From: a virus
Lineage: Duplodnaviria > Caudoviricetes
Length of the DNA stretch: 38,756 nucleotides
Strand: one strand, 5' to 3'
IMG/VR virus record: IMGVR_UViG_3300003086_000048
Location: 1-38,756 of that record
How positions within the stretch are numbered: the first letter of the stretch is position 1; each line of letters begins with the position of its first letter. The translations under genes were made by a program, and so were the position numbers. Under the pieces are notes generated by a model. It ran no database searches, had not been told where the DNA came from, and worked only from the letters and a program-made list of their open reading frames with translations. Below are positions 1,720 through 38,315 of this stretch, piece after piece.

Positions 1720-1837
1720 TAAGGTTAAAAAGTTGTTAAAAAACAAAGACTTATAACACAAAGCTAAAGCTAACACAAAAGCTTTAACCCTAACACGAGA
1801 AGTGGGGGACTATTTAAAAGACTATTTAATATACTAA

Positions 1838-2103
1838 TATAAGAATAATATAAGAACAAGTATTAGTAGTATAAAGTATTTAAATATCTAATAATAATCT
1901 TATAATAATCTTATAACTTAGTAATATAATAATACTACTAATACTATATATAAAAACATATAATAATAAATATTATATACTAAAAAACACTAAAAGTCAA
2001 GTAAAAAAATAACTATATTTAAAAATAATTTAATAAGTATAAGAATAATATAAGTAGTCTAAAGTATTTATATATCTTATAAGTGTCTTATAACTTAGTA
2101 ATA
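1838..2103. repeat. Degenerate duplicated AT-rich block in the post-terminase non-coding region
   Basis: TATAAGAATAATATAAG at 1838-1854 and 2038-2054; TCTTATAACTTAGTAATA at 1909-1926 and 2086-2103. Confidence 0.8.
1972..2000 (-). promoter_or_regulatory. Leftward sigma70-type promoter
   Basis: Minus strand reads TTGACT-17 nt-TATAAT. Confidence 0.65.
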
Positions 2104-2745
2104 GATAGTAATAATAGGAGTATTAGATTATTAAGGTTATCCTCCTTTCCTTATGAATTTAGTATTCCTATTATTAAAATTAAACAAGTTAGTGAGTATT
2201 GGGTGGTATTATTAAAATTAAACAAGGAGAAACAATATGTTAGACAATTTATATATATATTTAGCGATCTTAAAGGAGGCTTACTATACAGTTAAATATA
2301 CACTTATTAAGGTTTTTGGTAAGGCTTATAAGATGGTGGTGAGAAAGTATGAAGAATGGATGAATGGGGTGTTCTAAGTGGTTATAAAATGTAAGGTAGT
2401 TCTAAAAAAATATGAAAAAATGTATGGGGGTCTTTAATAAAAGGAGAGCGCAATTTTCCCCCTTGCCCTCTTTTGAATATTGCCCAGTTTTTTTCTAAAT
2501 AATAATTTAAACAAGACTATAATAATATAATAATATAATACCCTGATAATTTACTGATAACCCTTAAAAAAATAGGGGTTTAAAAAATAGGTATTTCAAG
2601 GCCTGTATATATCATTGATTGATTATATAAATTGATTGTAATATTATAAAATGGTTATATAAATTATTCTTTATATTAGCTGGTTGATATATTATTAAAT
2701 GTTTATATAAAGTCTTCGTAATATTATTAAGTTATTATATTGTTA

Positions 2746-2764
2746 AATGCGAATGATTATCATT
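2746..2764. promoter_or_regulatory. Fur-box-like site
   Basis: AATGCGAATGATTATCATT matches the 9-1-9 palindrome AATGATAATnATTATCATT with 2 mismatches. Confidence 0.55.
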
Positions 2765-2941
2765 TAGATTAGTATTTGAAAAACCCTTTTTTTCATCTCT
2801 TTCATCTATTTTTCATTTATTTTAATATTTAGTTGCTATTTTACTTGATTTATTTTTAAATACATTACTATATAGGTATATATGTTTTGAAATGGTTTTA
2901 ATTTAATTTCAATTTATTTTTAAAATAAGGCTGTATTAAAC

Positions 2942-2969
2942 TTGATTTATTTTAGATTACATATATAAT
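2942..2969 (+). promoter_or_regulatory. Putative sigma70 early promoter
   Basis: TTGATT-16 nt-TATAAT upstream of the first early ORF; a similar ACTTGATTTATTTT element lies at about 2843. Confidence 0.45.
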
Positions 2970-3104
2970 ATATAGTAAGAAGCAACAAAATATATACATT
3001 TAAAAAGACCAATACGGCGATAAATGATTAAAATATTAAAAGCTTCTTAATACAAAGAAAGAAAGAGAGAACAATTAAATTACTAAAAAAGAGGATAACT
3101 AAAA

Positions 3105-5298: not shown

Positions 5299-5491
5299 AA
5301 ATAAAAAACATTATATAGGCAGTGAAATACCTAAAAAATTAGTCAATGAATTTGATAATTTGGCCGCTGATTGGTCAGATGATTTCGGAGACGGCTTCAC
5401 TAAAACAATGGCAGTAAAACTTGGTTTTATTACTGCTATTAAAATGATGAAAGAAGACAAGGAGAACAAAGAACAAAGGTTAAACTTTTAA
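5291..5491 (+). CDS. Small protein, possibly ribbon-helix-helix-like DNA binder
   Basis: Basic N-terminus, strand HYIGSEIP followed by two predicted helices; function is inferred. Confidence 0.55.
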   Translation: MSKNKKHYIGSEIPKKLVNEFDNLAADWSDDFGDGFTKTMAVKLGFITAIKMMKEDKENKEQRLNF

Positions 5492-7333
5492 CTAAATAAG
5501 TAATTAGACTTTAAAACATCATCAAGAACCAGCGTATTTATCATAATGTCGCTGGCTTTTTTGTGCGTGTCGTAAAGTGTATTTATTTGCTCCAACCATT
5601 CCTGTAAAGGATTATTATTAAATAATAAGAAATAACTTTTTCTTATGCTTTTATTCATAATATCAATATTATTACAATCAGTATAATAACAGTCGTGAAT
5701 TAGCTGAAAATTTGCAACATCAGATTTAATCATATCTTCAACCGTTAAAAACATTAAAGTAGCATCCAGAGAGTGTATCAAATTCGGAGCTATACTACTG
5801 GACTGTTTCTTTTTATCTAAAATATCCGTATTTATCTTAAATCTTAAATAACCTAATGCCGTTTTATATCTATGCACCTTCTTTGCGGTTGTGTGTTGAA
5901 TTATAGGAATATTAAAGAAAGGAGATAACCAAAACATACTGTTTTTTGAATTATGAGAAAAATCCCGCGTTATTGATTTAATAAACTCCTGACCTTTAAC
6001 AGCACCAACAACAATAGATTTGATAGCTTTTTTATTTAAAATAACAAGCAACCTTATTGCTATAAATTCCTCACCTTTCCAAAAAGGTATATTATCATCC
6101 TTTGCTACTTTAAATATTTCCTTTAATTGGTTATACATACCACGTTCAGAGACAGAATATGGCAAGGTCATTACATTCCTTTTAACGTGCGACCTATTGA
6201 GTGTTTTAATAAGAGAATTAGCCTCAATTTCCGTTGATACTTCTTTTTTAATACCATCACGAGTTGTGAAGCTAAAAATTTTTGGATAGTCGCCAGCAAC
6301 CAAATAAGATACTACTTTTTTTGCTACTAAGTCATAAACATCAGCAGGTTTGTAGCTTTTTGTTGAATATTGGAGCTGTTGGACTTTCAATACTTGTATC
6401 TATAATTTCATTTATAAATTCTAAAACCCTTTTATTTATCCGCCAAGGCGTAGCTTGAACTTTGTTTATTACTTTGAATAATCTACTAAAATTATGTTCT
6501 GGGAAATTATCCAGAAGTAATGTTTTGCTCGATCTATTTTTGTGCTTGATAAAAGGCAGGGGTGTATTAAGATAACCACCAACAGTTTTGTCAGTCCAGT
6601 TTTTAGGAGCAACAACCATCGGTTTATATTGCACACCAAGGGCTGATATCTGGTCTGCTATTTTTGTTATTTTGGTTTCCGCATCGCTTGTTAAAATTAT
6701 GAATTTATACGGATCCGTCCTCTTTCCTGCTGATTTTTGTTCGGGTGAATGCTTTCTAATTATCTTAAAAACATTTGGTAATGATAACACCAATATCTCT
6801 ATTAGTTTGCTACATTCCTGAATTCCAATCAGGTTTTCAACATCAATTTCTAATTTTTGAATAGTTTTAAGCTTTTGCCTTTTTACATATCTTGCTGATT
6901 TGTCAAGGTTTTCATATTCAATATAAGACGAGAGTTTAGCCGTATTGCCAGCCTTATTAAAGTGGTCTATATATACTGCTTCCCGAAGTGTGTTGCGAAG
7001 CTTAATAGTAATCTCCTGAACCTTGGGTGGTTGCTTTAATATTAAGTTTAGTGCATCTGTCAATACAAGTAGTGCAAGCTCGTCTTCTCTGCCCCTGAAA
7101 TGCTCGCTAATAGCCTTCTTTCCAACGGAATACAGTCCAGTAGATAAATACTGCTCTATACCATATTCGAGGGTTTTAAGGCTGTTTATAAGCAAGCTAT
7201 ACACAGGTGGTGTTGATATTGCATTATCACTATTTACTAATGATAGCATATTTTTCTTAAACTTTAAGATTGCGGCAGGACGCATTTGAGCTTCAAGCTC
7301 CACCTGCTGTTGTTTTAAATTAAGAGTATTGAT
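5488..7333 (-). pseudogene. T7-type single-subunit RNA polymerase, inverted, split (7333..6341 and about 6360..5488) with a large internal deletion
   Basis: N half: PMVVAPKNW...GGY and INKVQATPWRINKRVL. C half: DVYDLVAKKV, motif B RSHVKRNVMTLPY, IAPNLIHSLDA, motif C LIHD, C-terminal YLFS. The DxRGR motif and motif A are absent. Confidence 0.88.
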
Positions 7334-7427: not shown

Positions 7428-7456
7428 TTGACAAGGTTTTTTCAAACGTGTATAAT
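7428..7456 (+). promoter_or_regulatory. Consensus sigma70 promoter 1
   Basis: TTGACA-17 nt-TATAAT. Confidence 0.85.
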
Positions 7457-7588
7457 TTATTAAGAAACATATTTAAAAGACCTTATACTTTTTATACTAA
7501 TTAAAAAATAAACACAAAGAAAGACTTGACAAGATATTTATTAAGGTGTATAATTTATTAAGAAACATATTTAAAAGACTTTATACTT
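7448..7588 (+). repeat. 43-bp direct repeat, two copies 98 bp apart (7448-7490 and 7546-7588)
   Basis: GTGTATAATTTATTAAGAAACATATTTAAAAGAC[C/T]TTATACTT, one mismatch. Confidence 0.92.
7526..7554 (+). promoter_or_regulatory. Consensus sigma70 promoter 2
   Basis: TTGACA-17 nt-TATAAT. Confidence 0.85.
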
Positions 7589-7646
7589 ATTATACCATTA
7601 AAACAATAATAATATAAACTAATTTAAAATTAAATTAAAAATAGTA

Positions 7647-7675
7647 TAGACAAGTAAAAGTTTTTAAGATATAAT
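7647..7675 (+). promoter_or_regulatory. Sigma70 promoter 3
   Basis: TAGACA-17 nt-TATAAT. Confidence 0.7.
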
Positions 7676-7837
7676 ATAAATATAACAAAAAAGATGTTAT
7701 ACTTATAATAGGAAGAAGTAAGAAAGTAAGAAAATAAAAGATGATTAAAAAGTAATAAAAAATAAACACCCTTCCAAAACTTTAATTATCCTTTGTGTCA
7801 ATTTTGACAAATAATATATATAAAAGGAATAATAATA

Positions 7838-8497
7838 ATGAAAAATAATAACAAAAAAATCGAAGCTTTTTTAACGCCAACTGGCACTGCAATGTGGGCT
7901 TCAATTATCGAACCAAACAAGAAATTCAATGCTGATGGTGTCTATATGATCGATATTCAATTCGACTTAGAAACTATTGATGTTGTGAAGAAGATGCTTG
8001 AAAAACAAAGAGATGATTTTTTAGAGGTATGTTTAGAAGATGGAACGATTAAAGGTGCAAAAGCAAACAAAGTAGTTGTTGCTGATGTTTTAAGAGAAAC
8101 AGAAGATAAAGATGGCAACCTAACAGGTGGTGTTTATATCAAAGCGAAGCAATACACCAAAACTTGGGATGGAAAGCCACAAAAAGTAACGATTGTTGAT
8201 GCTTCTGGACGTGTTCTACAAAACTTCAAAAAGCTTGTTGGTAATGGATCGCAAGTGAGAGCTAAACTATACCCTAAACCTTACTACATGGCTTCAACCA
8301 ATACTGTTGGCATTTCGTTAAGAATTAATGCTGTGCAGATTATTGATTTGATTGAATTTAGTTCAAATGGTCAAGGTTCAGACTTTGAAGCGGTTGAAGG
8401 TGGTTTTACTGATAATAATGATAATATTATGGCTAACTTTGGTAATGTTGCTGATGAAGTAAAAGAGCCTGCAATGGTTGCTGACGCTAACTTTTAA
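7838..8497 (+). CDS. Single-stranded DNA-binding protein (T7 gp2.5-like)
   Basis: TPTG..WA, KFNADGVY, VGNGS, GISLRINAVQIIDL, acidic tail ending in Phe. Confidence 0.92.
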   Translation: MKNNNKKIEAFLTPTGTAMWASIIEPNKKFNADGVYMIDIQFDLETIDVVKKMLEKQRDDFLEVCLEDGTIKGAKANKVVVADVLRETEDKDGNLTGGVYIKAKQYTKTWDGKPQKVTIVDASGRVLQNFKKLVGNGSQVRAKLYPKPYYMASTNTVGISLRINAVQIIDLIEFSSNGQGSDFEAVEGGFTDNNDNIMANFGNVADEVKEPAMVADANF

Positions 8498-8520
8498 TAA
8501 CTGATAACAAGGAGGATATT

Positions 8521-10191
8521 ATGGCTAATTTTAAAAAACACACATCTTGTCCTTTTTGTTCAAGTTCGGATGCCTTTGCTATTTATGATGATAATAGTGG
8601 ATACTGTTTTTCTTGTAAAGAAAGCAGAGGTTCTGACAACTTTAAAAATAATAAAAAGGAGAAAAAAATGGGAAATCCCACTAATTTAATACAGGGAGAA
8701 TACACACCCCTTGCCGCAAGAAAAATAAGTCTTGCAACGGCGAAGAAGTATAAATACCAAACAGGTATGTATAATGGCAAACCTTGCCATATTGCTAACT
8801 ACTATAATAAAGATGGAGAAAAAGTCGGGCAAAAGTTAAGATTTGCTGATAAGACTTTTAAAACACTTGGAAAAGTAAAAGGCGACCTGTTATTCGGATC
8901 TCAAATATGGAGAGATAAAGGTAGGCAAGTGATCCTATGCGAAGGTGAATTAGACGCACTTAGTGTTGCAGAGGCATATGGGGCTAAATACCCAGTCGTG
9001 TCGTTGCCAGCAGGTGCTGGTTCTGCACTTAAAGCTGTAAAAGCTAACCTTGAATTCTTAGAAGGCTTTGATAGCATCCTGTTGTGGATGGATAATGATA
9101 AAGAAGGAAATAAGGCTGTTGATGAGATTGCTGGTATTTTTAAAGTAGGAAAAGTTAAGATTGTTAAACATTCTGAACACAAAGATGCAAGTGATGTTCT
9201 CGTAAATGAAGGCAAGCAAGCAGTAGTTGCTACTACTTATGAAGCAAAAGATTGGCGACCTGATGGAATATTAAAGGGTTCTGATATGTGGGAAGAGTTT
9301 AAAAATAAGCCCGTATTTGAAACTTTTGACTATAAGTATCCAATTATACAAGATAAGCTAAAAGGCATAAGAAAGGGCGAGCTAACCACCTTCACCGCAG
9401 GTAGCGGGTTAGGCAAATCAACAGTCGTAAGAGAAATTGCTTATGACTTGATGATGACACAAGATGCTAAAATTGGCTATATTGCTTTGGAAGAAAATTG
9501 GAGAACAACCCTTTCTAAATTCCTCGGATTATATGCTAAAAAGCCTATCTTCTTTGGTGATGAATTGACCGATAAAGAGGAAAAGGAAGCTTGGGATGCT
9601 ACTATTGGTCAATCTAAACTTTTTCTATATGACCACTTCGGGAGTATGGAGATTGATAACCTATTAGCAAAAATAAGGGTTATGGTTCAAACTTGTGGAG
9701 TTGATTTTGTTATACTTGACCACATTTCGATTGTTGTTAGTGGTATGGATGGCAATATGGATGAGCGTAAAGCAATTGACAAGCTTATGACTGATTTAAG
9801 AAGCTTAACAGAACAAACAGGTGTTGGTATGGTTATTATCTCACACTTGCGAAGAACTGGTGGCAACAAAGGACACGAAGATGGTGAGCAAATTAGCTTA
9901 GGGCAACTGCGGGGATCTGGGGCAATAGCTCAATTAAGTGATACGGTGGTAGGTATTGAAAGAAACGCTCAAGCGGAAGGTAATGAAAGCGACCAGATAT
10001 CGATGAGAGTTTTAAAGAACAGGTTCGCCGGTGGATTAGGCTTGGCAGACACTTTACAATATAATCACACAACTGGTTGTTTAGATTTGATGAGTGGCGA
10101 CTTCTATACAAGACCAGAGCCAAAAGAAGAGCCAGAACCAGAGGTTTATAAAAAGATGAGTATAGATGATAAAGAAGATTTACCTTGGTAA
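8521..10191 (+). CDS. DNA primase-helicase (T7 gp4-like)
   Basis: CxxC...CxxC zinc finger, TOPRIM EGELDA and DND, Walker A AGSGLGKST, ILDHISI, LRGSGAIAQLSD. Confidence 0.97.
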   Translation: MANFKKHTSCPFCSSSDAFAIYDDNSGYCFSCKESRGSDNFKNNKKEKKMGNPTNLIQGEYTPLAARKISLATAKKYKYQTGMYNGKPCHIANYYNKDGEKVGQKLRFADKTFKTLGKVKGDLLFGSQIWRDKGRQVILCEGELDALSVAEAYGAKYPVVSLPAGAGSALKAVKANLEFLEGFDSILLWMDNDKEGNKAVDEIAGIFKVGKVKIVKHSEHKDASDVLVNEGKQAVVATTYEAKDWRPDGILKGSDMWEEFKNKPVFETFDYKYPIIQDKLKGIRKGELTTFTAGSGLGKSTVVREIAYDLMMTQDAKIGYIALEENWRTTLSKFLGLYAKKPIFFGDELTDKEEKEAWDATIGQSKLFLYDHFGSMEIDNLLAKIRVMVQTCGVDFVILDHISIVVSGMDGNMDERKAIDKLMTDLRSLTEQTGVGMVIISHLRRTGGNKGHEDGEQISLGQLRGSGAIAQLSDTVVGIERNAQAEGNESDQISMRVLKNRFAGGLGLADTLQYNHTTGCLDLMSGDFYTRPEPKEEPEPEVYKKMSIDDKEDLPW

Positions 10192-10232
10192 ATTAAAAGA
10201 TAATAAAAAAATAATAAAGAGGAGAGATAAAA

Positions 10233-10610
10233 ATGAATAAAAATACTAAAAAATGTTATGCTTGTAATACAACAAAAGATATTAAAGATTTTTGGAAAAA
10301 CCAAACACAATGTATTAGCTGTAAAAATGAAGGTCAGGAGAAATACCGAGCAACCGATGATGCCAAGAAAATAAGAAACAAAAGAGCTTCTGCACAAAAT
10401 GTAGGTTTTTACAGACAAAAACAATTAACAAGAATGAAGACTTTTCAAAAGATAAAATCTGGCAAACTAATAAGAACTAAATGCAAGTGTGGAGATTTTG
10501 GGGTTGAATTCCACCACCATTCTTATGATCTTGATGATAGTTGGAAAGATGGAGAGTTTGTATGCTTGCCTTGCCACACCCAAATTCATAAGGCGGTGTG
10601 TAATGGATAA
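10233..10610 (+). CDS. Zinc-finger / HNH-like endonuclease
   Basis: N-terminal CxxC...CxxC; C-terminal CKCG...EFHHHSY...VCLPCHTQIH. Confidence 0.7.
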   Translation: MNKNTKKCYACNTTKDIKDFWKNQTQCISCKNEGQEKYRATDDAKKIRNKRASAQNVGFYRQKQLTRMKTFQKIKSGKLIRTKCKCGDFGVEFHHHSYDLDDSWKDGEFVCLPCHTQIHKAVCNG

Positions 10611-11544
10611 TATAAAGATAGAAGAGGAGTTTGCAAAAGAATTAAAAAGAATTGAAATCAATGGCTGGTATTTTGATACTAAAAAGGCGCAACAACTACA
10701 CCTTTCACTTATGGAAGATATGGATGGAAATAGCCACTTGATAGACCAGACACAAACTATGCTTGATTATTCCTACCACTCCAAAAGGATTAGAACTGAT
10801 TATAAAAACTTTGGAACTTATACAGGTAGATGTTCGCATAAGAACCCAAATATTGCGGGCATACCAAAGGGTAAGTTAAGAGGTTGTTTTGGTGTTGAAG
10901 AAGGTAATGCTTTGATAGGAACAGATGCTAACCAATTGGATGCTACTATGTTGGCACACTACTTAGCTAATTATGATAGTGGTGATTTTGCGAAGAAGCT
11001 TGACGAAGTAGATAGTATTCATACTTTGAATATGGAAATACTTGGATTAGAAAGACCAAAAGCAAAGGCTTTTTACTATGCAATGTTATATGGTGCGAGT
11101 GATACTAAACTTGGTGCTATGCTTGGTGGAGACGCTACTCTTGGTGAGACCACTAAAAACAATTATAGGAAAGAGTTAAAAGGTCTTGATAACTTGGAAT
11201 TTAATTTAAAGAATAGGTTTGAAAGTGGCTACCTTAATAACATTTTAGGTCAGAAGATAGAAATAAAGAATAGCTGGACTTCACTTAATACCTTACTGCA
11301 ATCGGCAAGTGCTTGTGTTATGAAAGTATTCGTTGTTTTGTTAAGTGAAAAAATAAGAATGAGAGATGCTAAGATCGTTGGATTTATCCACGATGAAGTT
11401 CAAATAGAAGTAGATTATAAAAATGTAAATGATGTGGTGATGATGATTGATGAAACTTGGAAAGAAGTATCGGAATATTTATCTTTAAAATCAACATTAA
11501 CAGGTAATACTGTTGTTGGTAGAAACTGGGAGGAAACACATTAA
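10603..11544 (+). CDS. Miniature family A DNA polymerase (T7 gp5-like; no exonuclease domain, thumb largely absent)
   Basis: EINGWYFD, TGRCSHKNPN, motif A DANQLD, motif B RPKAKAFYYAMLYGA, LNTLLQS, motif C IHDEVQ; likely start ATG at 10603 gives 313 aa. Confidence 0.9.
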   Translation: MDNIKIEEEFAKELKRIEINGWYFDTKKAQQLHLSLMEDMDGNSHLIDQTQTMLDYSYHSKRIRTDYKNFGTYTGRCSHKNPNIAGIPKGKLRGCFGVEEGNALIGTDANQLDATMLAHYLANYDSGDFAKKLDEVDSIHTLNMEILGLERPKAKAFYYAMLYGASDTKLGAMLGGDATLGETTKNNYRKELKGLDNLEFNLKNRFESGYLNNILGQKIEIKNSWTSLNTLLQSASACVMKVFVVLLSEKIRMRDAKIVGFIHDEVQIEVDYKNVNDVVMMIDETWKEVSEYLSLKSTLTGNTVVGRNWEETH

Positions 11545-11936
11545 TGTATAAACTAACCTTACCATACCCTACGATTAAGAAAAAGAAGAGTTTAAACCTA
11601 TTATCTTTAAACATTTATAGGAATGCCCACTTCTTTCTTTTAAGTAAGGCTAAAAAGGAATATGCTGAACTTTGTTTTGCTGAATTTAAAAAACATAAAT
11701 TAGTTCCCCTAAAAGGACAAATTATGTTAAAATATACTCTATTCTTTAAAGGAAAAAGAAGACGTGATTTAGATAATTTCTTTTCAATTACAAGCAAGTT
11801 CTTCAATGATGCTTTGGTTGATTATGGAATTATTGAAGATGATGATATAAAGGTTATCCCTAACATAGAAATAAACTTCGGTGGAACGGGCGATAAAAAT
11901 TACGTGCAAATTGAGATTTTACAACTAACAAAATAA
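11544..11936 (+). CDS. RusA-like Holliday junction resolvase
   Basis: RRRDLDN, K...DALV..GII.DD motifs. Confidence 0.82.
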   Translation: MYKLTLPYPTIKKKKSLNLLSLNIYRNAHFFLLSKAKKEYAELCFAEFKKHKLVPLKGQIMLKYTLFFKGKRRRDLDNFFSITSKFFNDALVDYGIIEDDDIKVIPNIEINFGGTGDKNYVQIEILQLTK

Positions 11937-11942
11937 AATAAG

Positions 11943-12137
11943 ATGGAAACAGAAGAATTAACGATTGATGATTATATCGATTGGAAAATCAATACAAAAA
12001 AAGAAGAGGTGGTTTGGTGTTGGGAAGTTATCCTACAAGACTACCTATCTTTCATTACAAAAAACAATGTAATTTTAACTGTTGATCATGTCATGGACGT
12101 GATTGATAGCATTAAATACGACTACAACAATCAATAG
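11943..12137 (+). CDS. Hypothetical protein
   Basis: 64 aa ORF closely packed in the operon. Confidence 0.6.
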   Translation: METEELTIDDYIDWKINTKKEEVVWCWEVILQDYLSFITKNNVILTVDHVMDVIDSIKYDYNNQ

Positions 12138-12147
12138 ATAAAAATAT

Positions 12148-12894
12148 ATGAAAGCACTTATAGACGCAGATAGCCTGTTGTATAAGGCGTGCTCGGTCAA
12201 TCAAGAAGTAATCGAATGGGATGAAGACACAATAACTGTTATCATTGATTTTGATGCGACAAAGACAACCTTTAATCGTTATATAAACGAAATTACTGAT
12301 GAGACTGATACCAACGAAAGTTTGCTTGTTTTTAGTCCAAAGAGGACTTTTAGGTATGATGTATTACCTACATATAAGCACAATAGAAAACCACAGAAAC
12401 ACCCCCTTCAACTAATTGGGAAGCTTAAAGAGTTTGCGTTGAATAAATACAATTCAATCAATTGTGAATATATAGAAGCAGATGACTATTGTGTTGCTGA
12501 AATGTATAAATTCCCCACAAAATATATTCTTTGTCATATTGACAAGGACTTGGATCAAGCCCCCGGCAACCATTACAATTATAATAAGAAAATTAGCTAC
12601 ATTGTGAATAAGAAAGATGCTAAAATGTTCTTCTATATTCAAACACTAACAGGTGATACTGTTGATGGTTATAAAGGTTGCCCTGGAATAGGTATTAAGA
12701 GGGCTGAAAAGCTACTTGAAGACGTTAAGGATGACGACATTTGGGATGTTATCGTAAAGGCATACAATGACAAGGGATTGACAGAAGAAGATGCCCTACA
12801 ACAAGCACAGGTGGCTCGTATGCTACGTGGTAGAGAGATAGATGGGCTGAATGAAGGAGAGTTATGGCAACCCAAAGTAAAAGCCAAAGCTTAA
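12148..12894 (+). CDS. 5'-3' exonuclease (T7 gp6-like)
   Basis: LIDAD, FR...PTYK.NR, EADD, DKDL, GDTVDGYKGCPGIG. Confidence 0.95.
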   Translation: MKALIDADSLLYKACSVNQEVIEWDEDTITVIIDFDATKTTFNRYINEITDETDTNESLLVFSPKRTFRYDVLPTYKHNRKPQKHPLQLIGKLKEFALNKYNSINCEYIEADDYCVAEMYKFPTKYILCHIDKDLDQAPGNHYNYNKKISYIVNKKDAKMFFYIQTLTGDTVDGYKGCPGIGIKRAEKLLEDVKDDDIWDVIVKAYNDKGLTEEDALQQAQVARMLRGREIDGLNEGELWQPKVKAKA

Positions 12895-13085
12895 CTGAAA
12901 TTATATTAAATGTAGTAAGTGGGTGGGTAGTATCTTACTTGTTATGGATTTGGCTTATCATCCCAATATGGGATATTAAAGTTAGTGTTCAAGATAACAT
13001 AATAATTACTACTATTTTCACAATTAGTGCAGTTATTAGAGGCTATTTGTGGAGAAGGTTTTTTAACAAAAAGGAAGGGAAATGA
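12864..13085 (+). CDS. Small two-TM membrane protein
   Basis: QSKSQSL.E...NV; two hydrophobic segments; RGYLWRRFFN. Confidence 0.7.
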   Translation: MATQSKSQSLTEIILNVVSGWVVSYLLWIWLIIPIWDIKVSVQDNIIITTIFTISAVIRGYLWRRFFNKKEGK

Positions 13086-16713: not shown

Positions 16714-17004
16714 ATGGGATTAGATAGAACAGGAAATGGATACTTAATTGATCCAACAATTTGGTCAGAAGAAGTAATGCACGAGATGGCTAAAGAAGAT
16801 GAATTAAAATTGACGGACTCAATGGTAACTCAAATTACCAAGGCAAGAGAATACTTTGAAGAGAATTCAAGTGTGCCGCCAATTAGAACTTTTGCTAAGT
16901 ATGTAGGTATTGATAAGGGTAAGCTATTTAAAGAGTGGCTAACTGGCCCTATGAAACCCATTACTAAATATGGTGGTATGCCACAGCCAACTGGGTGCGT
17001 TTAA
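16714..17004 (+). CDS. dsrC: DsrC/TusE-family sulfur carrier (single C-terminal Cys)
   Basis: GYLID...WSEEV, REYF, GP......GG.PQPTGCV C-terminus. Confidence 0.92.
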   Translation: MGLDRTGNGYLIDPTIWSEEVMHEMAKEDELKLTDSMVTQITKAREYFEENSSVPPIRTFAKYVGIDKGKLFKEWLTGPMKPITKYGGMPQPTGCV

Positions 17005-24495: not shown

Positions 24496-26697
24496 ATGGA
24501 AGTTAATCAAACACTACCAACATTGGCTAATGGCATATCACAACAGGCGGTTCATTTAAGAAATGATAGTTTTGTTGAAGAAATGTTTGACTGTAATGTT
24601 AGCCTTGTTGAGGGTATTACAGTAAGGGCTGGAGAGGATACCGTGATAATGGATGCTTGGCCAGTCATTAATGATAACAACGGAAACCCTGTTGATATTA
24701 ATCAGGGGCTTCTATGGACACATACATACGACACAGGAACAGGTTTTGGTGATGATGCTTCTAAGAGAGAGGTTCATATTCAAGTATCGACAACAGGAGC
24801 ATGGCGGGTTTATTTGTTTAGTGGTGACTTAACAATTCCTGATACTTTCTCTTATGGGTGGGATGAATACTTCTATATATTCGATGTGCCTTCAGATATG
24901 CCACCATACAGTGCCGTTTCGGTTGGAGATAGCACATTCATAACCAACAGATTAAGAACGGTAACAAAATCAAGTGTATGGGCTCATACGGGGCATGTTC
25001 ATAAAGACCATAGCTTTTATTGGGTAAAAAGGTCTTTGTTGTCATATGGTGGCACTGATAATTCAGATATTAGAAATTATAGATATACAATAAATACGAT
25101 TGATATTCCAACTTCTTATAGTTCTGCATATGGAGACACCGACGTTGTAGCTTATTCTCTGGCAAACGCTGGTGGTGTTGGTTTTGAAGTAAGTGGTAGT
25201 GTTGTATATAGAGATGATATTGTTGCTGGTAGTTCTGATTGGGTTACTGGTGATAGCTGGGGAAACATGGCGAGCGTTGGTTGGCAGGGTAGAGTTTCCA
25301 AACTACAAGATTTGCCGAATAATATGGGTTCTTTTTATGGAACAAAAACTATTGTTGAGGTAACTGGTGATGAAGATAATGAATTCACTGGTTTTTGGGC
25401 TTGGGTAGAAAACGAGGGTGATAATTGGAGCGAAACAATAGAGCCCGGTATTAGCTCTGGTTTAGACAAAAGCAGTATGCCGCATGTATTTAGAAATGTT
25501 GATGATGGATCAACTCATGGTGTTTTCGAGGTTCAAGAATTCGAATGGAACGATAGGGAGGTTGGTGGTGATGAAAGTAATGCGATGCCAACAATTGTAG
25601 GTGGTGTTGTTAGAGATATATTTTTCTTTAAAAATAGGCTCGGACTACTAACAAAAAATGGTGTTGTTTTATCAGAAGTAGGATTATATGAAAACCTATT
25701 TAGGACAACCGTAACTGATTTATTAGACAGCGACCCAATTGATATTTCGATTGATACCAATATTGTTTCAGACCTACACTATGCTATTCCTTATAATAAC
25801 AATCTGCTTATTTTTGGTGCAAGAGAACAATATATATTAAGTGGAGCGAAAACGCTTACTCCTAAAAACGTATCTGTTACTCAATCCACAAAATATGATT
25901 ACAATACAATCATACCACCAGTCGCCCTTGGTGCTAATGTTTATTTTACAGTAAATAAGGGATTCTATTTACAGGTGCGTGAGTATTACAATGTTGATGG
26001 AACTGCAAGCAATGAAAGCACAGATATAACAGAACAAGTTCCAAGACTTATTCCTAATGATAGTGAGCTAACAATGGTTGGTTCAGAAAAACACGATATG
26101 CTATTTATTGCCAATGATGATCTAACCTTTGTTTATAACATGGCTTGGGGTAGCGAAGGGAAGGTTCAGAGTGCTTGGCATTTATGGACTGTTGGTGGCT
26201 ATTTAACCCATGCCAATGCCTCACTACATATGTTTAGGCGAGGATATCCAATTGATGGTTCTGGTAATGAAATAACAACTGATGATTTTGGCGTTGGCAC
26301 TGGAGAGCTTGATTTAAGCACTGATATTTTCTTGGGACATAATCCCTTTAGAATATTTGGTGATAGCAACTATGACACTTGGATGTTCCCATATATTGGA
26401 CTAAGTGAGTGGGGCTTTAAGAGTGGAAGTTATGAGGTGGATGATAAAACTGGTAAATTGCAAATAAGAAAAATTACTTTATTTGGTGACAGTAATGCTC
26501 ATATTTTTATAAAAGAAAAAGGACTTAGTGTGGCTGATCCATCAATAGCAGTTATTGAAAATACAAAAACAGCTACCGTCATGAGAGATAGTAAAGAGAC
26601 ATCAATTGGAATAATGCCTGTTGATGGTGAAGAGTTTAGCATAACTTCCATAAATTTAAGCGGAAGATTTAACAAGAGAGCAGGGAGAGCTATATGA
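24496..26697 (+). CDS. Tail tubular protein B (gp12-like)
   Basis: GISQQ, MPH, W..R.VG, FFKNRLG, DSDPID, VQSAWH.W. Confidence 0.92.
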   Translation: MEVNQTLPTLANGISQQAVHLRNDSFVEEMFDCNVSLVEGITVRAGEDTVIMDAWPVINDNNGNPVDINQGLLWTHTYDTGTGFGDDASKREVHIQVSTTGAWRVYLFSGDLTIPDTFSYGWDEYFYIFDVPSDMPPYSAVSVGDSTFITNRLRTVTKSSVWAHTGHVHKDHSFYWVKRSLLSYGGTDNSDIRNYRYTINTIDIPTSYSSAYGDTDVVAYSLANAGGVGFEVSGSVVYRDDIVAGSSDWVTGDSWGNMASVGWQGRVSKLQDLPNNMGSFYGTKTIVEVTGDEDNEFTGFWAWVENEGDNWSETIEPGISSGLDKSSMPHVFRNVDDGSTHGVFEVQEFEWNDREVGGDESNAMPTIVGGVVRDIFFFKNRLGLLTKNGVVLSEVGLYENLFRTTVTDLLDSDPIDISIDTNIVSDLHYAIPYNNNLLIFGAREQYILSGAKTLTPKNVSVTQSTKYDYNTIIPPVALGANVYFTVNKGFYLQVREYYNVDGTASNESTDITEQVPRLIPNDSELTMVGSEKHDMLFIANDDLTFVYNMAWGSEGKVQSAWHLWTVGGYLTHANASLHMFRRGYPIDGSGNEITTDDFGVGTGELDLSTDIFLGHNPFRIFGDSNYDTWMFPYIGLSEWGFKSGSYEVDDKTGKLQIRKITLFGDSNAHIFIKEKGLSVADPSIAVIENTKTATVMRDSKETSIGIMPVDGEEFSITSINLSGRFNKRAGRAI

Positions 26698-29607
26698 TAA
26701 GTGAAAAGTTTTTTAATGACGTTGAGGCGGACAAGGTATTCTCTTCTGATTTTGAAATCATTACCCCAAACCACTGTAATGTGTTTGTTAAGGTTTATGA
26801 CTGGACGACACACGTTGTTAGTTGGGAATTGGTAAATGTCGGTGAATATGATATTATTAATAATGCAGTAGTATTCCATGGGTCTTTGACCTTAATCACA
26901 TTTAGTGGTGGAGAATGGACTGGAGATCTAAAGGTTGTTGTTGCTACTACTATTGAAGACCTTGACATTAACCCAAGTGACTGCTCTATTCTTGCAGAAA
27001 TGCAAGCAGAAATACAAGTATTGGCTACGATAGCTGATGATATTAAAGAGTTGGGATTAGTTGAAACAGGTGTATTCCAAACTGTTGCTGATAATATTGG
27101 CGATATTAACACAATAGCTAATTTTGAATTCAGTTATACTGGTATTTGGGAAACAATTTTTAACAACCTAACCAATGGTGCTATTCAAGGAGTATTTGAA
27201 AGTATAGATAATGTTAATATTGTCGCTGATAATATTGGTAGTGTTAATTTAGTAGGATCAAACATTGGTGTTGTTATTGATGTTGGACTAAACCTTGGCA
27301 ACATTACTACTGTTGTAGGTATGGAAGCAAACATAAACACCCTTATTCCTCATATAGCTAATATTGGTGTTGTTTCTACTAATATTGATAATGTAAATCT
27401 TGTTGGTAACGACATTGATAACATTAATACTATTGCTGAAAGCTTAGTCGTTTATACTGGTGGAACTAATGTAACTATCGTTGATGGTGTTATTAGCTCT
27501 GTTGATACAAATACTACTTATACAGATGCTGAAATTAAAACCAAGTATGAAAACAACACAGATACAAATAGCTTTACAGATATTGAAAAGACAAAACTAT
27601 CAGGTGTTGATGATAGTGCTAATAATTATGTTCATCCAGCCAACCATACAATTGCCGAAGTAACAGGACTACAAACAGCTTTAGATGGGAAGACCACAGA
27701 GGCCTATGTAACCACACAAATTACAAACCTTATTGATGCTTCGCCTGATGCCTTAAACACCCTAAATGAGCTTGCTGGGGCCCTTAACGACGATGCTAAC
27801 TTCGCTGGAACTATGACTACTGCATTAGCAGGAAAAGTAGATGATAGTCAAGTATTAACCAATGTTCCGTTAGGGGCTGTATTTACTGATACTACTTATT
27901 CAGTAGGCGATGGTGGTTTAAGTGAGGTGAGCTTTACTTCTACCGACAATACAAAGCTTGATGGCATTGAGTCAGGAGCTACAGGTGATTTAACTGGTGC
28001 TGAAATTAAGGTTTTATATGAGAGTGAGGACAATACAAATGTCCTTAGTGATTTTAATCTCGCTAAGTTGGTTGCCATTGAGCAGAATGCTACTGGTGAT
28101 TTAACAGAACAAGAGCATTATAATATGCTTTGGAATATATCTGTAACCCCTGCCACCTATGACTTTAATATCTTTAAAGATGCTGATCAAACTAAGTTAG
28201 CTGGTATTGAAGCCAATGCTACTGGTGATATGACTGATGCAGAAGTTAAAACAGCTTATGAAAACAATGCAGAAACTAATGTATTTACAGATGCACAAGT
28301 AACCAAACTTGCAGGTATTGAAGCTTTAGCAGGTGTAACAGATACGACAAGTGTAACTTCTGCTGGTGCTTTAATGGACTCCGAAGTAACAAATCTTGCA
28401 GATGTTAAAGCATTTGATACTACTGATTATGCCACTTCTGCTCAAGGGACAAAGGCTGATGGTGCGCTTCTTCGAGCTGGTGGTTTGGTAAGTGGCGATA
28501 TTGCTTTTGTGGATAATGTTCCGGCATCTTTTGGAAATAATAGTAATTTAGTTATTAAATATGATACAACTAATGCTATAATTAAGGAACAAACTTCATC
28601 AGATGGTTTGCTTATACAATCTAAATTGTTAAAATTAACTGATAATATTGATGTCTGTGGATTTGTATTACAGCAACTCTAAGAAGTTTGAGACTACAGC
28701 CTCAGGCACAACTACAACAGGAGATATAGTAGCTACAGGAGATTTAAGGGTTGGTGGAACGACATACCATCCTGATGATGTTATTTCAACCTTTGGTGAT
28801 AGTGGTGAATTGGATATTTACCAAAGCACGTCTGGCTATTCGATGGTTAGAAGTAATACCTTAGCATATATTCAGTCTCCAGACCTATATCTTACAAACC
28901 TACTTGGTGCAGAGAAGTATGCCCGCTTTGTTGAGGGTGGTGGTGCAAGTCTTTATCATAGCAATACTAAGAAACTTGAAACAACAGCTACTGGTGCTAA
29001 GGTTACGGGAGACTTAGAGGTTACTGGTGAATTACTTGGTGATAATATTCCAAAGTATGAAAAAGGAACACTAACCAACGTAACAACTTCAGGAGCAGAA
29101 TGGCGTAATATTGCATGGATTGATCCTGATGCTTCTACTTCCGGGAATGGAGAGAGAGGCACAGCTAAATTCCAGATTGTTAATAGGGATAGTGGTAATC
29201 ATCAACAAGTAGTATTTTATGCATCACATAATTATGGAAGAAATGAAAGTAACGTAATAACTGTATTGACAGATAGTAGCTATGGGACATTAGATGGTGG
29301 CTTTAATAAGATAAGGATTGTAGAAAGCTCAACATATGATGGAGCTGTATTACAGGTTTATTTTAATACAGCAGAAACAATTAGCTACTGTCAAGTATCA
29401 ATGACTGAAAACGAAATGACTACGGGTTGGCAATTATTAGATTGGACTACAGAGGCAAATATTCCTATTAGTGGTCTAACAGAGCCAGCATTAGGACCAG
29501 CAGTAGATTTAGCAGTTGTAGCTGGCTTTAATACTAACCAAGATATGTATTCAAAAGGTAGTGAGGTTATTACGATGGCTAAACTTACCGAACTGGGGCT
29601 TATTTAA
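26694..29607 (+). CDS. Tail fibre protein, frameshifted at about 28653 (ORFs 26694..28682 and 28648..29607)
   Basis: VADNIGxVN repeats, PDALNTLNELAGAL.DDANFA fibre motif, TKL.GIE..ATGD repeats, LY.SN.KK.ETT repeats continuing across the frame break. Confidence 0.85.
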
Positions 29608-37007: not shown

Positions 37008-38315
37008 ATGGCAAAAGAGCTATACAACACCCCCAACCTTGATGAATTAGAGAATGGCCCATGGCCTTCTTTTGTTACTGGAATGAAAAGGCTGGCATCA
37101 GACGATCACGCAGGTGCTTCTATGGTGCGCGACGTTTTAGCAACATTAGAAACATCATATGTAACGAAGAAAGGTTACTGGAAAGGTGGCACTGTTGGTG
37201 TTATTGGTTATGGTGGTGGTGTTATTCCACGTTTCAACGAACTTAAAGATGAAAACGGTAATACCAGATTCAAGGATGCTACTGAATTCCATACATTAAG
37301 AATTCAACCGCCAGCAGGTATGCACTATACCTCCGACTTATTAAGAAACATGTGTGATACATTCACAGATAATGGTGGTTCTGGTTTGATTGCATTCCAC
37401 GGTCAGTCTGGTGACATTATGTTCCAAGGAGCAACAGAAAAGACAACGCAAACTATTTTTAACGAGCTTAACGAGATTGGCTTTGATATGGGTGGTGCGG
37501 GCCCTGCTGTTAGAACTGGTATGTCATGTGTTGGTGCGGCACGTTGTGAAATGTCAAATACAAACGAGCAAGCGGCTTTACGCACATTGGTTAATGCTTT
37601 CCTTGATGACATGCACAGACCTGCATTACCATACAAAATGAAGTTTAAAGTTTCTGGTTGTGCAAACGACTGTATGAACTCAATTGAGCGTTCAGACTTT
37701 GCAACAATAGGAACTTGGAGAGATGATATTAAAATCAACCAAGACTTGTGGAAAGCAATGGTTGCAGATAAGGGCATGGACTATGTTGTTGATAACATTA
37801 CTTCTCGTTGTCCTACGCAATGTATGACTGTTAATGCTGATACTTCTCTTACTATTGATAACCGAAACTGTGTTAAATGTATGCACTGTTTAAACGCAAC
37901 ATCACCATTAACACATAACTATATAACAAAAGATATGCCTACTGAAGCTATCTTAGCAACTGGTGATGACAAAGGTGTAACAATTTGTATGGGCGGTAAG
38001 CGCACATTGAAGATCGGTGACTTATTCGGCACAGTTGTTGTTCCATTTATGAAGCTTGAGACAGAAGAAGATTATGAAGCAATCGAAGAATTAGCAGGAG
38101 AAGTTATCGACTTCTTTGCTGAGAATGCACTAGAGCACGAAAGAACTGGTGAGATGATTGAGCGTATCGGTATTGTGAATTTTATGGAAGGTATTGGCTT
38201 AGACGTTAATCCTAACATGGTTGATTCACCACGTTACATGTCATATGTTCGAATGGACAAGTGGGACGAAGAAGCGGTTAAATGGTTTGAGAATAAAGCA
38301 GAGGCCTCGGCATAA
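37008..38315 (+). CDS. dsrA: Dissimilatory sulfite reductase alpha subunit, oxidative (reverse) type
   Basis: TPNLDELENGPWPSFV, WKGG.VGV.GYGGGVI, FHTLR, siroheme/Fe-S CVGAARC and GCANDC, ferredoxin CVKCMHC, ALEHERTGE. Confidence 0.97.
   Translation: MAKELYNTPNLDELENGPWPSFVTGMKRLASDDHAGASMVRDVLATLETSYVTKKGYWKGGTVGVIGYGGGVIPRFNELKDENGNTRFKDATEFHTLRIQPPAGMHYTSDLLRNMCDTFTDNGGSGLIAFHGQSGDIMFQGATEKTTQTIFNELNEIGFDMGGAGPAVRTGMSCVGAARCEMSNTNEQAALRTLVNAFLDDMHRPALPYKMKFKVSGCANDCMNSIERSDFATIGTWRDDIKINQDLWKAMVADKGMDYVVDNITSRCPTQCMTVNADTSLTIDNRNCVKCMHCLNATSPLTHNYITKDMPTEAILATGDDKGVTICMGGKRTLKIGDLFGTVVVPFMKLETEEDYEAIEELAGEVIDFFAENALEHERTGEMIERIGIVNFMEGIGLDVNPNMVDSPRYMSYVRMDKWDEEAVKWFENKAEASA

What the first reader, a model, noticed from the sequence alone, without database searches (positions are those of the whole stretch)
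10603..11544. Miniature 313-aa family A polymerase: no exonuclease, no thumb, altered steric gate
Seen: only about 45 residues separate NGWYFD from TGR, where T7 gp5 has about 190 (thumb plus thioredoxin-binding domain), and the frame is intact. Catalytic Asp residues of motifs A and C and the motif B R/K/Y/Y residues are retained. Motif A reads DANQLDAT instead of DASGLELR, so the steric-gate Glu (T7 E480, Klenow E710) is Asp (codon 10939-10941) and the following Arg is lost. Inference: it is unlikely to be a processive replicase. It may be a distributive, low-fidelity or rNTP-tolerant enzyme (primer extension, end processing, nucleotide tailing), with bulk replication done by a host polymerase. 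Together with the HNH neighbour and the disabled RNAP, this is the best candidate for an undescribed system here. Caveat: short ATGGA repeats at 10711-10728 could mark a deletion junction.
Basis: partly seen in the sequence, partly recalled or inferred. Interest (0 to 1): 0.8.

Follow-up and report, generated by a model that had tools for sequence, protein, structure and literature searches.

The report
Stripped-down T7-type phage DNA polymerase
The only recognisable DNA polymerase gene of this deep-sea T7-like bacteriophage has lost its proofreading part and the tip of its DNA-gripping thumb yet keeps its catalytic residues, a design also found in nine other, mostly unnamed, T7-type sequences; it likely makes only short stretches of DNA, such as lengthening primers, and would leave bulk copying to the host enzyme.

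Summary
The window is the GenBank genome of Lauvirus lau218 (KJ183193). The 313-aa polymerase is real. It is identical in DNA in four other assemblies, and Logan contigs cross the deletion unbroken at depth 15-330. It is a T7 gp5-type PolA with no 3'-5' exonuclease and no thumb tip/TBD; a two-helix thumb stub remains, and neither missing part was found elsewhere in the genome. Nine other T7-type proteins share the short thumb (55-72 vs at least 131 residues between anchors). All ten lack the exonuclease domain or its catalytic residues, against 132 of 138 intact in full-length relatives. Only Lau218 has the gate E>D, so it does not define the group. The 'system' idea fails: the RNAP break is an assembly deletion and the HNH gene is not conserved. 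Best reading (0.5): an active, distributive, non-proofreading helper, most likely extending primase primers, with host Pol III doing bulk synthesis; untested. The design has precedents: divPolA1 (Yutin 2024), which this scan met before in huge phages, and CCPol. Those are other lineages; divPolA1 occurs beside a second polymerase. New variant of a known kind.

The parts
10603..11544 (+). Mini T7 gp5-type family A DNA polymerase, 313 aa, no exonuclease, thumb tip/TBD absent
   Evidence: AF2 pLDDT 83; VIA Z 31.1, rmsd 1.9, 311 aligned to T7 gp5 211-704
10678..10773 (+). Thumb stub: predicted helices 26-38 and 44-57 with a short link in place of about 160 T7 residues (TBD, H1, H2, most of helix I, loop 401-404)
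   Evidence: T7 element boundaries from PMC9198812 Table 1; crossed by contigs of X1, X2, X4
10924..10947 (+). Motif A DANQLDAT: catalytic D108; gate D113 (codon 10939-10941) for T7 E480; T115 for R482
11053..11094 (+). Motif B (O helix) R151, K155, Y159, Y163, G164
11389..11397 (+). Motif C HDE
8521..10191 (+). T7 gp4-type primase-helicase with zinc-binding, Toprim and helicase motifs and an acidic tail ending in W; likely partner (inferred)
7838..8497 (+). gp2.5-like SSB with tail ending in F
10233..10610 (+). HNH-type endonuclease overlapping the polymerase start; sits where an exonuclease gene would be; not conserved in relatives
11544..11936 (+). RusA-like resolvase, start overlaps polymerase stop
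12148..12894 (+). gp6-like 5'-3' exonuclease (primer removal, inferred)
7428..7833 (+). Four sigma70-type promoter matches (two 12/12 in an 84-bp repeat, two 11/12) ahead of the SSB-gp4-pol gene run

Best explanation
This is a T7 gp5-derived polymerase with intact catalytic motifs that has lost proofreading and the thumb tip; it is likely an active but distributive helper that adds short DNA tracts at the phage fork, most likely lengthening the short RNA primers of the neighbouring gp4 primase, while the host Pol III holoenzyme would do bulk synthesis. Shown: the architecture; the gene position directly after gp4 (at most one small gene between) in all 4 cases with known context; no exonuclease or thumb-tip gene elsewhere in the Lau218 genomes; joint loss of thumb tip and exonuclease in 10 of 10 proteins; selective retention of catalytic residues. 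Inferred: activity; low processivity (by analogy with T7 gp5 without thioredoxin and the Klenow thumb mutant); binding to gp4; hand-off to the host clamp and Pol III. About half of this confidence goes to primer extension (Pol-alpha-like), the rest to gap filling with the gp6 exonuclease, recombination-primed synthesis or terminal-repeat duplication.
For: Architecture. Recurrence: 9 of 164 aligned proteins have 55-72 residues between the thumb anchors, the other 155 at least 131; L180 adds a tenth (63, counted by hand). Seven have no exonuclease domain; three carry one with the four acidic residues read as TEHN, SEAK, DL-K, against DEDD in 132 of 138 full-length proteins. Selection: P0001 keeps 35 of 41 columns that are at least 90% conserved, but only 29 of 106 variable ones; L005 vs L006 dN 0.29, dS 0.56. 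Context: L006 and L180 polymerase starts abut the gp4 stop; L180 shows RNAP-MazG-SSB-endonuclease I-gp4-pol-portal with no exonuclease match. In L005, L006 and L180 the gp4 tail lacks the terminal aromatic residue seen in 45 of 51 other distinct tails (one clade, not independent). In T7 that tail tethers gp5 for processive synthesis (PMC12593628 passages). T7 tetramer primers need direct gp4-gp5 delivery (PMC9198812). T7-like cyanopodoviruses with gp4 and no polymerase exist and are proposed to use host polymerases (PMC9860041). CCPol-MP is proposed to hand short products to a host polymerase (PMC7581432).
Against: No activity or interaction data. T7 loop 401-404, implicated in primer utilisation, is missing in Lau218. 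Polymerase-free MPP-C phages show that no phage primer extender is strictly needed. Lau218 gp4 keeps an acidic tail ending in W and its SSB ends in F, as for a T7-type replisome. No convincing beta-clamp-binding motif was found: the single match, at polymerase residues 31-36, is the conserved stem helix. P0001 is the longest branch (1.97 vs median 0.64), is at the low end for conserved columns (35 vs median 40), and the polymerase drifts faster than its neighbours (63% vs 77-87% identity in L005/L006), as a decaying gene would. Genomic context is known for only 4 of 10 members, and only Lau218 is complete.
Confidence: 0.5

Rival explanations
1. It is still the replicase: tethering to the gp4 hexamer and SSB, or an unknown host or phage factor, replaces the thumb tip, and the lack of proofreading is tolerated or left to host repair.
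For: It is the only polymerase found in a complete 39-kb genome and sits in the gp5 slot. gp4 and SSB keep acidic/aromatic tails. gp4-gp5 coupling raises T7 processivity to 17 kb. The genome carries RNR and ThyX for dNTP supply.
Against: The TBD and helices H1/H2, which contact primer-template in T7, are gone. The three low-GC relatives lack the gp4 tail aromatic. Most genes are 99.8-100% identical among the sister assemblies, weakly at odds with error-prone bulk copying.
Confidence: 0.2
2. It is a relic on the way to loss: the phage already relies wholly on host polymerases, like MPP-C cyanopodoviruses, and the gene is under weak or fading selection.
For: Longest branch in both trees; motif A changes private to Lau218; dN/dS about 0.5 vs 0.18-0.38 for neighbours in L005/L006; a series of forms from decayed exonuclease to none; polymerase-free relatives are known.
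Against: All catalytic and dNTP-binding residues are kept across a branch of about 2 changes per site. Frames are intact in 10 proteins that share only 29-64% identity with the sequences they were aligned to, with similar deletion boundaries and a confidently folded stub. Start and stop overlap the neighbouring genes.
Confidence: 0.18
3. It is a primase-like or rNTP-tolerant enzyme: with the SSB it starts chains de novo like CCPol-MP, or adds ribonucleotides through the relaxed gate.
For: CcPol has a shortened thumb and partial exonuclease and primes with an OB-fold partner. Lau218 has the gate E>D and an OB-fold SSB in the same gene run. That Taq E615D mutants take rNTPs better is recalled, not found in the library (empty).
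Against: An intact gp4 primase is next door in all 4 contexts. 9 of 10 short-thumb proteins keep E, and one full-length protein with exonuclease motifs (P0242) has D. Taq E615 tolerates conservative changes and R617 many (PMC6158600).
Confidence: 0.1
4. It is an assembly deletion of a normal gp5 gene.
For: This assembly has at least two unsupported deletions elsewhere (RNAP 6353/6354, nrdA 13748/13749); short ATGGA repeats lie in the junction.
Against: 0 differences over 942 nt in 4 other assemblies; contigs 9643-11102 (depth 332), 8899-11847 (99) and 10608-11588 (16) cross the junction, and no joint or loose end is listed there (its tables are cut, and X1/X2/X4 are one study, perhaps the source); the same architecture recurs in 9 other proteins.
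Confidence: 0.02

Closest known systems
T7 gp5 / T7-like PolA (cluster 5 of Czernecki et al. 2023, PMC10201439)
   Same: Best PDB sequence match (E 4e-22; profile E 2e-61) and best fold match (Z 31.1, rmsd 1.9); motifs A/B/C, Tyr at 526; gene after gp4.
   Different: No 3'-5' exonuclease, no TBD, no thumb tip, no 401-404 loop; gate D for E480; 313 vs 704 aa.
Split exo/pol T7-like polymerases (S-SBP1-like; PMC10201439)
   Same: Polymerase gene begins at about the same boundary as the 410-420-aa exonuclease-less relatives, which I take to be of this type; same PHROG 15971.
   Different: The split type keeps a thumb tip and has an adjacent exo gene; Lau218 has neither.
divPolA1 (Yutin et al. 2024, PMC11348598)
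   Same: Active-looking palm, truncated thumb, exonuclease lost or inactive; lies among replication genes.
   Different: divPolA1 occurs in 155-190-kb phages with a second 'regular' polymerase and keeps an inactive exonuclease domain. P0001 against the Immutovirus candidate gives BLAST E 1.0 and hhalign probability 4.8. That paper's table lists Lau218 as plain PolA, cluster univ_PolA.87, with only the three Lau218 rows. Convergent, not a member.
CCPol-MP / PolA-SSB primases (Bebel 2020, PMC7581432; Rice 2022 bioRxiv)
   Same: Trimmed PolA beside a helicase; shortened thumb; no proofreading; short products proposed to be extended by a host polymerase.
   Different: Derived from bacterial Pol I, keeps part of the exonuclease, replaces a primase; here a gp4 primase is present and the enzyme is T7-type. 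No direct sequence comparison was run.
MPP-C cyanopodoviruses lacking DNA pol (PMC9860041)
   Same: T7-like phage with gp4 and SSB that is proposed to use host polymerase.
   Different: Those have no polymerase gene at all; Lau218 keeps a trimmed one.

Membership tests
Family A DNA polymerase | Palm/fingers fold with motifs A (D), B (R..K...Y...YG), C (HDE) | tested here: met
   PF00476 98 bits
Family A DNA polymerase | Template-directed dNTP incorporation | not testable with these tools
   needs purified protein
T7-like gp5 subfamily (ancestry) | Closest sequence and fold relatives are T7-type phage PolAs; gene next to a Toprim primase-helicase | tested here: met
T7 gp5-type replicase (function) | Active 3'-5' exonuclease, fused or on a separate gene | tested here: not met
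   absent from ORF; exonuclease profile finds nothing in window, L003, L004 (best E 0.43), controls 139-168 bits
T7 gp5-type replicase (function) | Full thumb with tip (TBD optional) | tested here: not met
   55 residues between anchors vs at least 131 in 155 others; no tip elsewhere
S-SBP1-like split polymerase | Adjacent separate exo gene and intact thumb | tested here: not met
   upstream gene is an HNH-type endonuclease
divPolA1 | Truncated thumb, conserved palm, no active exonuclease | tested here: met
divPolA1 | Sequence relative of Immutovirus divPolA1 | tested here: not met
   BLAST E 1.0, hhalign probability 4.8 against QQO91680; that this protein is the divPolA1 is inferred from gene order; one member only
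divPolA1 | Encoded in a 155-190-kb phage beside a second regular DNA polymerase | tested here: not met
   39-kb genomes; no other polymerase among 52 ORFs scanned or in the annotations
CCPol / PolA-SSB primase | Primer-independent synthesis with an OB-fold partner | not testable with these tools
   biochemistry needed; no complex model was obtained
CCPol / PolA-SSB primase | Stands in place of a primase in the helicase operon | tested here: not met
   gp4 with zinc-binding and Toprim motifs is present

The most novel reading that the evidence does not exclude
A lineage (or several) of T7-like phages has turned gp5 into a dedicated primer-extending polymerase, a bacterial-virus counterpart of eukaryotic Pol alpha: gp4 makes short RNA primers, the 312-328-aa mini-PolA lengthens them with DNA until the host clamp loader can act, and host Pol III replicates the phage on a phage helicase. 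The ten sequences would record the steps from T7's self-sufficient replisome (exonuclease decayed, then deleted, gp4 tail lost) towards polymerase-free podoviruses.
Probability: 0.25. Interest if true: 0.8.

Novelty: new variant of a known kind. Interest (0 to 1): 0.55.

Why it matters
T7 gp5 is the textbook processive, proofreading phage replicase. A complete T7-like genome whose only polymerase lacks both features, and nine more sequences with the same paired loss, suggest that some of these phages changed how they replicate. That bears on the open question of how polymerase-free T7-like cyanopodoviruses copy their DNA. At 312-328 aa these are near-minimal natural PolA cores, easy to express, and give a direct test of what the thumb tip and exonuclease domain are needed for (PMC10201439 states that PolAs need the exonuclease domain for stability). 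The general design is already in print for other lineages, which caps the surprise.

Tried and rejected
HNH/RNAP 'system': rejected. Upstream in-frame GTG start (351 aa) and the 331-aa cluster member P0121: they only read through the HNH gene and match no family beyond the same 46 residues. PHROG 15971's 376 columns suggested a longer close relative, but the 410-416-aa exonuclease-less polymerases match it end to end, which explains the length. Apparent full-length matches in Klebsiella phage K2044-EW lie in a 708-aa gene; L008/L010/L011/L018/L020 and L268 have thumb tips. A junction-profile search gave no new member among the 120 listed of 212 hits (6 candidates checked by motif); it also missed two known members, P0275 and P0137. 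Locus scans with P0135, P0224, P0137 (viral) and P0391 (metagenome) found nothing. Monophyly: trees place the short-thumb proteins in 4 places, but the AU test does not reject one clade (p 0.228; quick tree, careful search unfinished; P0274 left out as near-duplicate), so 1-4 origins stay open. Clamp-motif scan: nothing convincing. gp6 query against the L180 genome: not found with this query. No RNA holder listed. Complex prediction of polymerase with the primase domain: the queue was full, no result. ESM Atlas gave only ordinary PolA clusters. Paper searches: 'Lau218' 1 paper (host prediction only); 'Lauvirus' 0 (127); 'truncated thumb'+PolA+phage+exonuclease 0 (128); E615D 0 (98); others. 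The library lacks most subscription papers, and the 'truncated thumb' phrase missed Yutin 2024, so 'not described' is weak.

Full report
Identity. The window matches GenBank KJ183193.1, Lauvirus lau218, at 100% over 8000-13000 with the same length. It is a T7-like phage with terminase, RNAP, SSB, primase-helicase, polymerase, RusA, 5'-3' exonuclease, RNR, ThyX, DsrC, DsrA and T7-type structural genes (52 ORFs scanned). A host-prediction paper assigns Lau218 to SUP05 from metagenomic contigs and to Flavobacteriia from isolate genomes (PMC5224470, passages). The original description of these phages (Anantharaman 2014) is recalled and was not read.

The observation. ORF 10603-11544 gives 313 aa. 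Against T7 gp5, residues 4-37 match 214-247 and 54-311 match 407-702, so about 16 residues stand for about 160, and the protein starts where the exonuclease domain ends. Motifs A, B and C keep D108, R151, K155, Y159, Y163 and H263-D264-E265; D113 faces E480 and T115 faces R482. AlphaFold2 on a 6-sequence alignment gives pLDDT 83 and pTM 0.84, with the thumb as two short helices; the model superposes on T7 gp5 211-704 at Z 31.1, rmsd 1.9 over 311 residues. So the tip and TBD are gone but the stem is not. Profiles of the exonuclease and of the thumb tip, built from 134 full-length relatives, found nothing in 3455 six-frame pieces from the window, two sister genomes and the loci of three relatives, apart from three full-length controls.

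Artefact check. The gene is identical at all 942 bases in KJ183192, NC_024329 and two IMG/VR contigs. I laid 4 of 5 listed runs (Logan contigs, not raw reads). Contigs of X1, X2 and X4 cross the junction with long flanks at depth 332, 99 and 16; X5, from a second study, has a 151-base identical piece at 10585-10735 that does not bridge the right side. X1-X4 are one study and may be the source data. The same call shows that other breaks in this assembly are not real. Loose ends at 6353/6354 match the 698 bases present in KJ183192, whose 831-aa RNAP has motifs A, B and C; a 31-base gap in nrdA is filled in three runs. The 'disabled RNAP' therefore falls; NC_024329 has a different break in this gene.

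Relatives. An exhaustive phmmer search, a profile search and a genome scan gave nine more T7-type proteins with the short thumb: P0135, P0173 (L005), P0273 (L006), P0274, P0275 and L180 (312-328 aa, no exonuclease domain), and P0137, P0224 (cluster of 9) and P0200 (474-506 aa). In an alignment of 167 proteins, 164 were filled at both anchors: 9 span 55-72 residues and 155 span at least 131, with nothing between; L180 misaligned when added and was counted by hand as 63. The three longer ones have lost two to four of the four exonuclease acidic residues, whereas 132 of 138 full-thumb proteins with a long N-terminus read DEDD; the other 6 are gapped or altered, and 21 with short N-termini were not counted. 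The set comes from searches seeded with these proteins and gives no prevalence. Among 263 polymerase frames in 270 loci, 12 had no thumb-tip hit: four Lau218 copies, L005, L006 and its duplicate L186, L180, and four fragments. The gate is E in all nine relatives; among 159 full-thumb proteins it is E 147, Q 11, D 1.

Selection and history. P0001 keeps 35 of 41 strongly conserved columns but 29 of 106 variable ones (full-length median 40 and 35): selected, but at the low end. For L005 vs L006, dN/dS is about 0.52 for the polymerase, 0.31 for gp4, 0.38 for portal and 0.18 for capsid (simple counting; extreme AT content probably deflates dS). Six of the relatives form a supported clade; P0001 (branch 1.97), P0224 and P0200 fall elsewhere, but one origin is not rejected (AU p 0.228).

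Context. In L006 and L180 the polymerase start abuts the gp4 stop; in L005 a methyltransferase-like gene lies between; portal follows within one or two small genes. These contigs are 20-25% GC and incomplete; L180 lies in a Flavobacteriaceae bin, which need not be the host. The HNH gene is thus not a fixed partner. Their gp4 tails lack the terminal aromatic residue; 46 of 55 distinct tails have it, Lau218's among them. The other six members have no context in hand.

Mechanism. From papers (passages read): T7 thumb helices H1/H2/I and the TBD contact primer-template, and gp5 cannot use gp4's tetramer primers without direct contact (PMC9198812); gp5 alone adds 1-50 nt, and gp4's acidic tail binds patches near the TBD and at the front (PMC12593628); thumb-truncated Pol I stays active with lower processivity and fidelity (Rice 2022, citing Minnick 1996); T7-like cyanopodoviruses without any polymerase exist (PMC9860041). 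I infer an active but distributive, non-proofreading enzyme. Paired loss of grip and proofreading fits an enzyme that makes only short tracts. Host Pol I could fill ordinary gaps, whereas extending a phage primase's short primers is the step that needs a matching partner in T7, so primer extension ahead of host Pol III is my first guess. Against it: loop 401-404 is missing, MPP-C phages manage without, Lau218 keeps its gp4 and SSB tails, and no clamp motif was found. No complex model could be obtained. The gate Asp may loosen sugar selection in Lau218 alone; Taq E615 tolerates conservative changes and R617 many (PMC6158600); the E615D ribonucleotide effect is recalled only.

Comparison. An earlier scan note led to divPolA1: truncated thumb, inactive exonuclease, in 155-190-kb phages that also have a regular polymerase (PMC11348598, section 13 and supplement rows read; supplement file 1 is cut as stored). 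Lau218 is listed there as ordinary PolA in a cluster of its own and is not detectably related to the one Immutovirus candidate compared. Czernecki 2023 (passages) describes split T7-like polymerases with an adjacent exo gene, and CCPol. Bebel 2020 (passages) and Rice 2022 (first part and passages; its supplement was not seen) describe trimmed Pol I primases. Also opened without bearing on the result: PMC3997047, PMC4215692, PMC8190135 (passages). I found no description of a thumb-tip-less, exonuclease-less gp5 as the sole polymerase of a T7-like phage in ten searches of a library without most subscription journals.

Verdict. Real; a family A polymerase of T7 ancestry that fails the tests for a T7-type replicase, for the split type and for divPolA1 membership, while working perhaps like CCPol as a short-tract enzyme. 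New variant of a known kind; interest 0.55.

Noticed in passing
window 6353/6354 (RNAP, 5488-7303, minus strand): 698-bp deletion found only in this assembly; intact 831-aa RNAP in KJ183192 and matching loose ends in three runs. The RNAP gene faces opposite to all other genes, unusual for T7-like phages (from recall).
   Followed up: yes
window 13748/13749 (nrdA): 31 bases missing here but present in contigs of X1, X2, X4; the split nrdA is an assembly error.
   Followed up: yes
window 26694-29607: Tail fibre in two ORFs that match positions 1-661 and 665-972 of one family; a single CDS in both sister genomes. Probably a frameshift error.
   Followed up: partly
window 7428-7833: Two perfect and two near-perfect sigma70 promoter matches, the first two in an 84-bp repeat spaced 98 bp, ahead of the replication genes.
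   Followed up: partly
window about 8890-9720 (gp4): Block of divergence against sister assemblies (51 synonymous, 9 non-synonymous codons) while flanking genes are identical; run contigs mostly carry the other allele, and three runs show a 129-base skip at 9453-9583.
   Followed up: no
window 1720-3100: Very AT-rich, nearly gene-free stretch (22-28% GC) with many short repeats after terL; candidate origin or genome end.
   Followed up: no
window 16714-17004 and 37008-38315: DsrC and DsrA sulfur-metabolism genes, already annotated in GenBank.
   Followed up: no
window 11245-11253 (polymerase residues 215-217): The Arg of the conserved LDGR motif is replaced in all six exonuclease-less proteins checked and kept in the three with a decayed exonuclease.
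   Followed up: no
L032 9079-10786: A T7-like polymerase split inside the thumb into 229- and 329-aa ORFs; error or a new split point.
   Followed up: no
P0242 and 11 other full-length proteins: Natural steric-gate variants in full-length T7-like PolAs: one Asp, 11 Gln among 159.
   Followed up: no
L180 (CAVYIL010000209.1): A 23%-GC T7-like phage contig binned in a Flavobacteriaceae MAG; carries the best-resolved replication module of a relative.
   Followed up: partly
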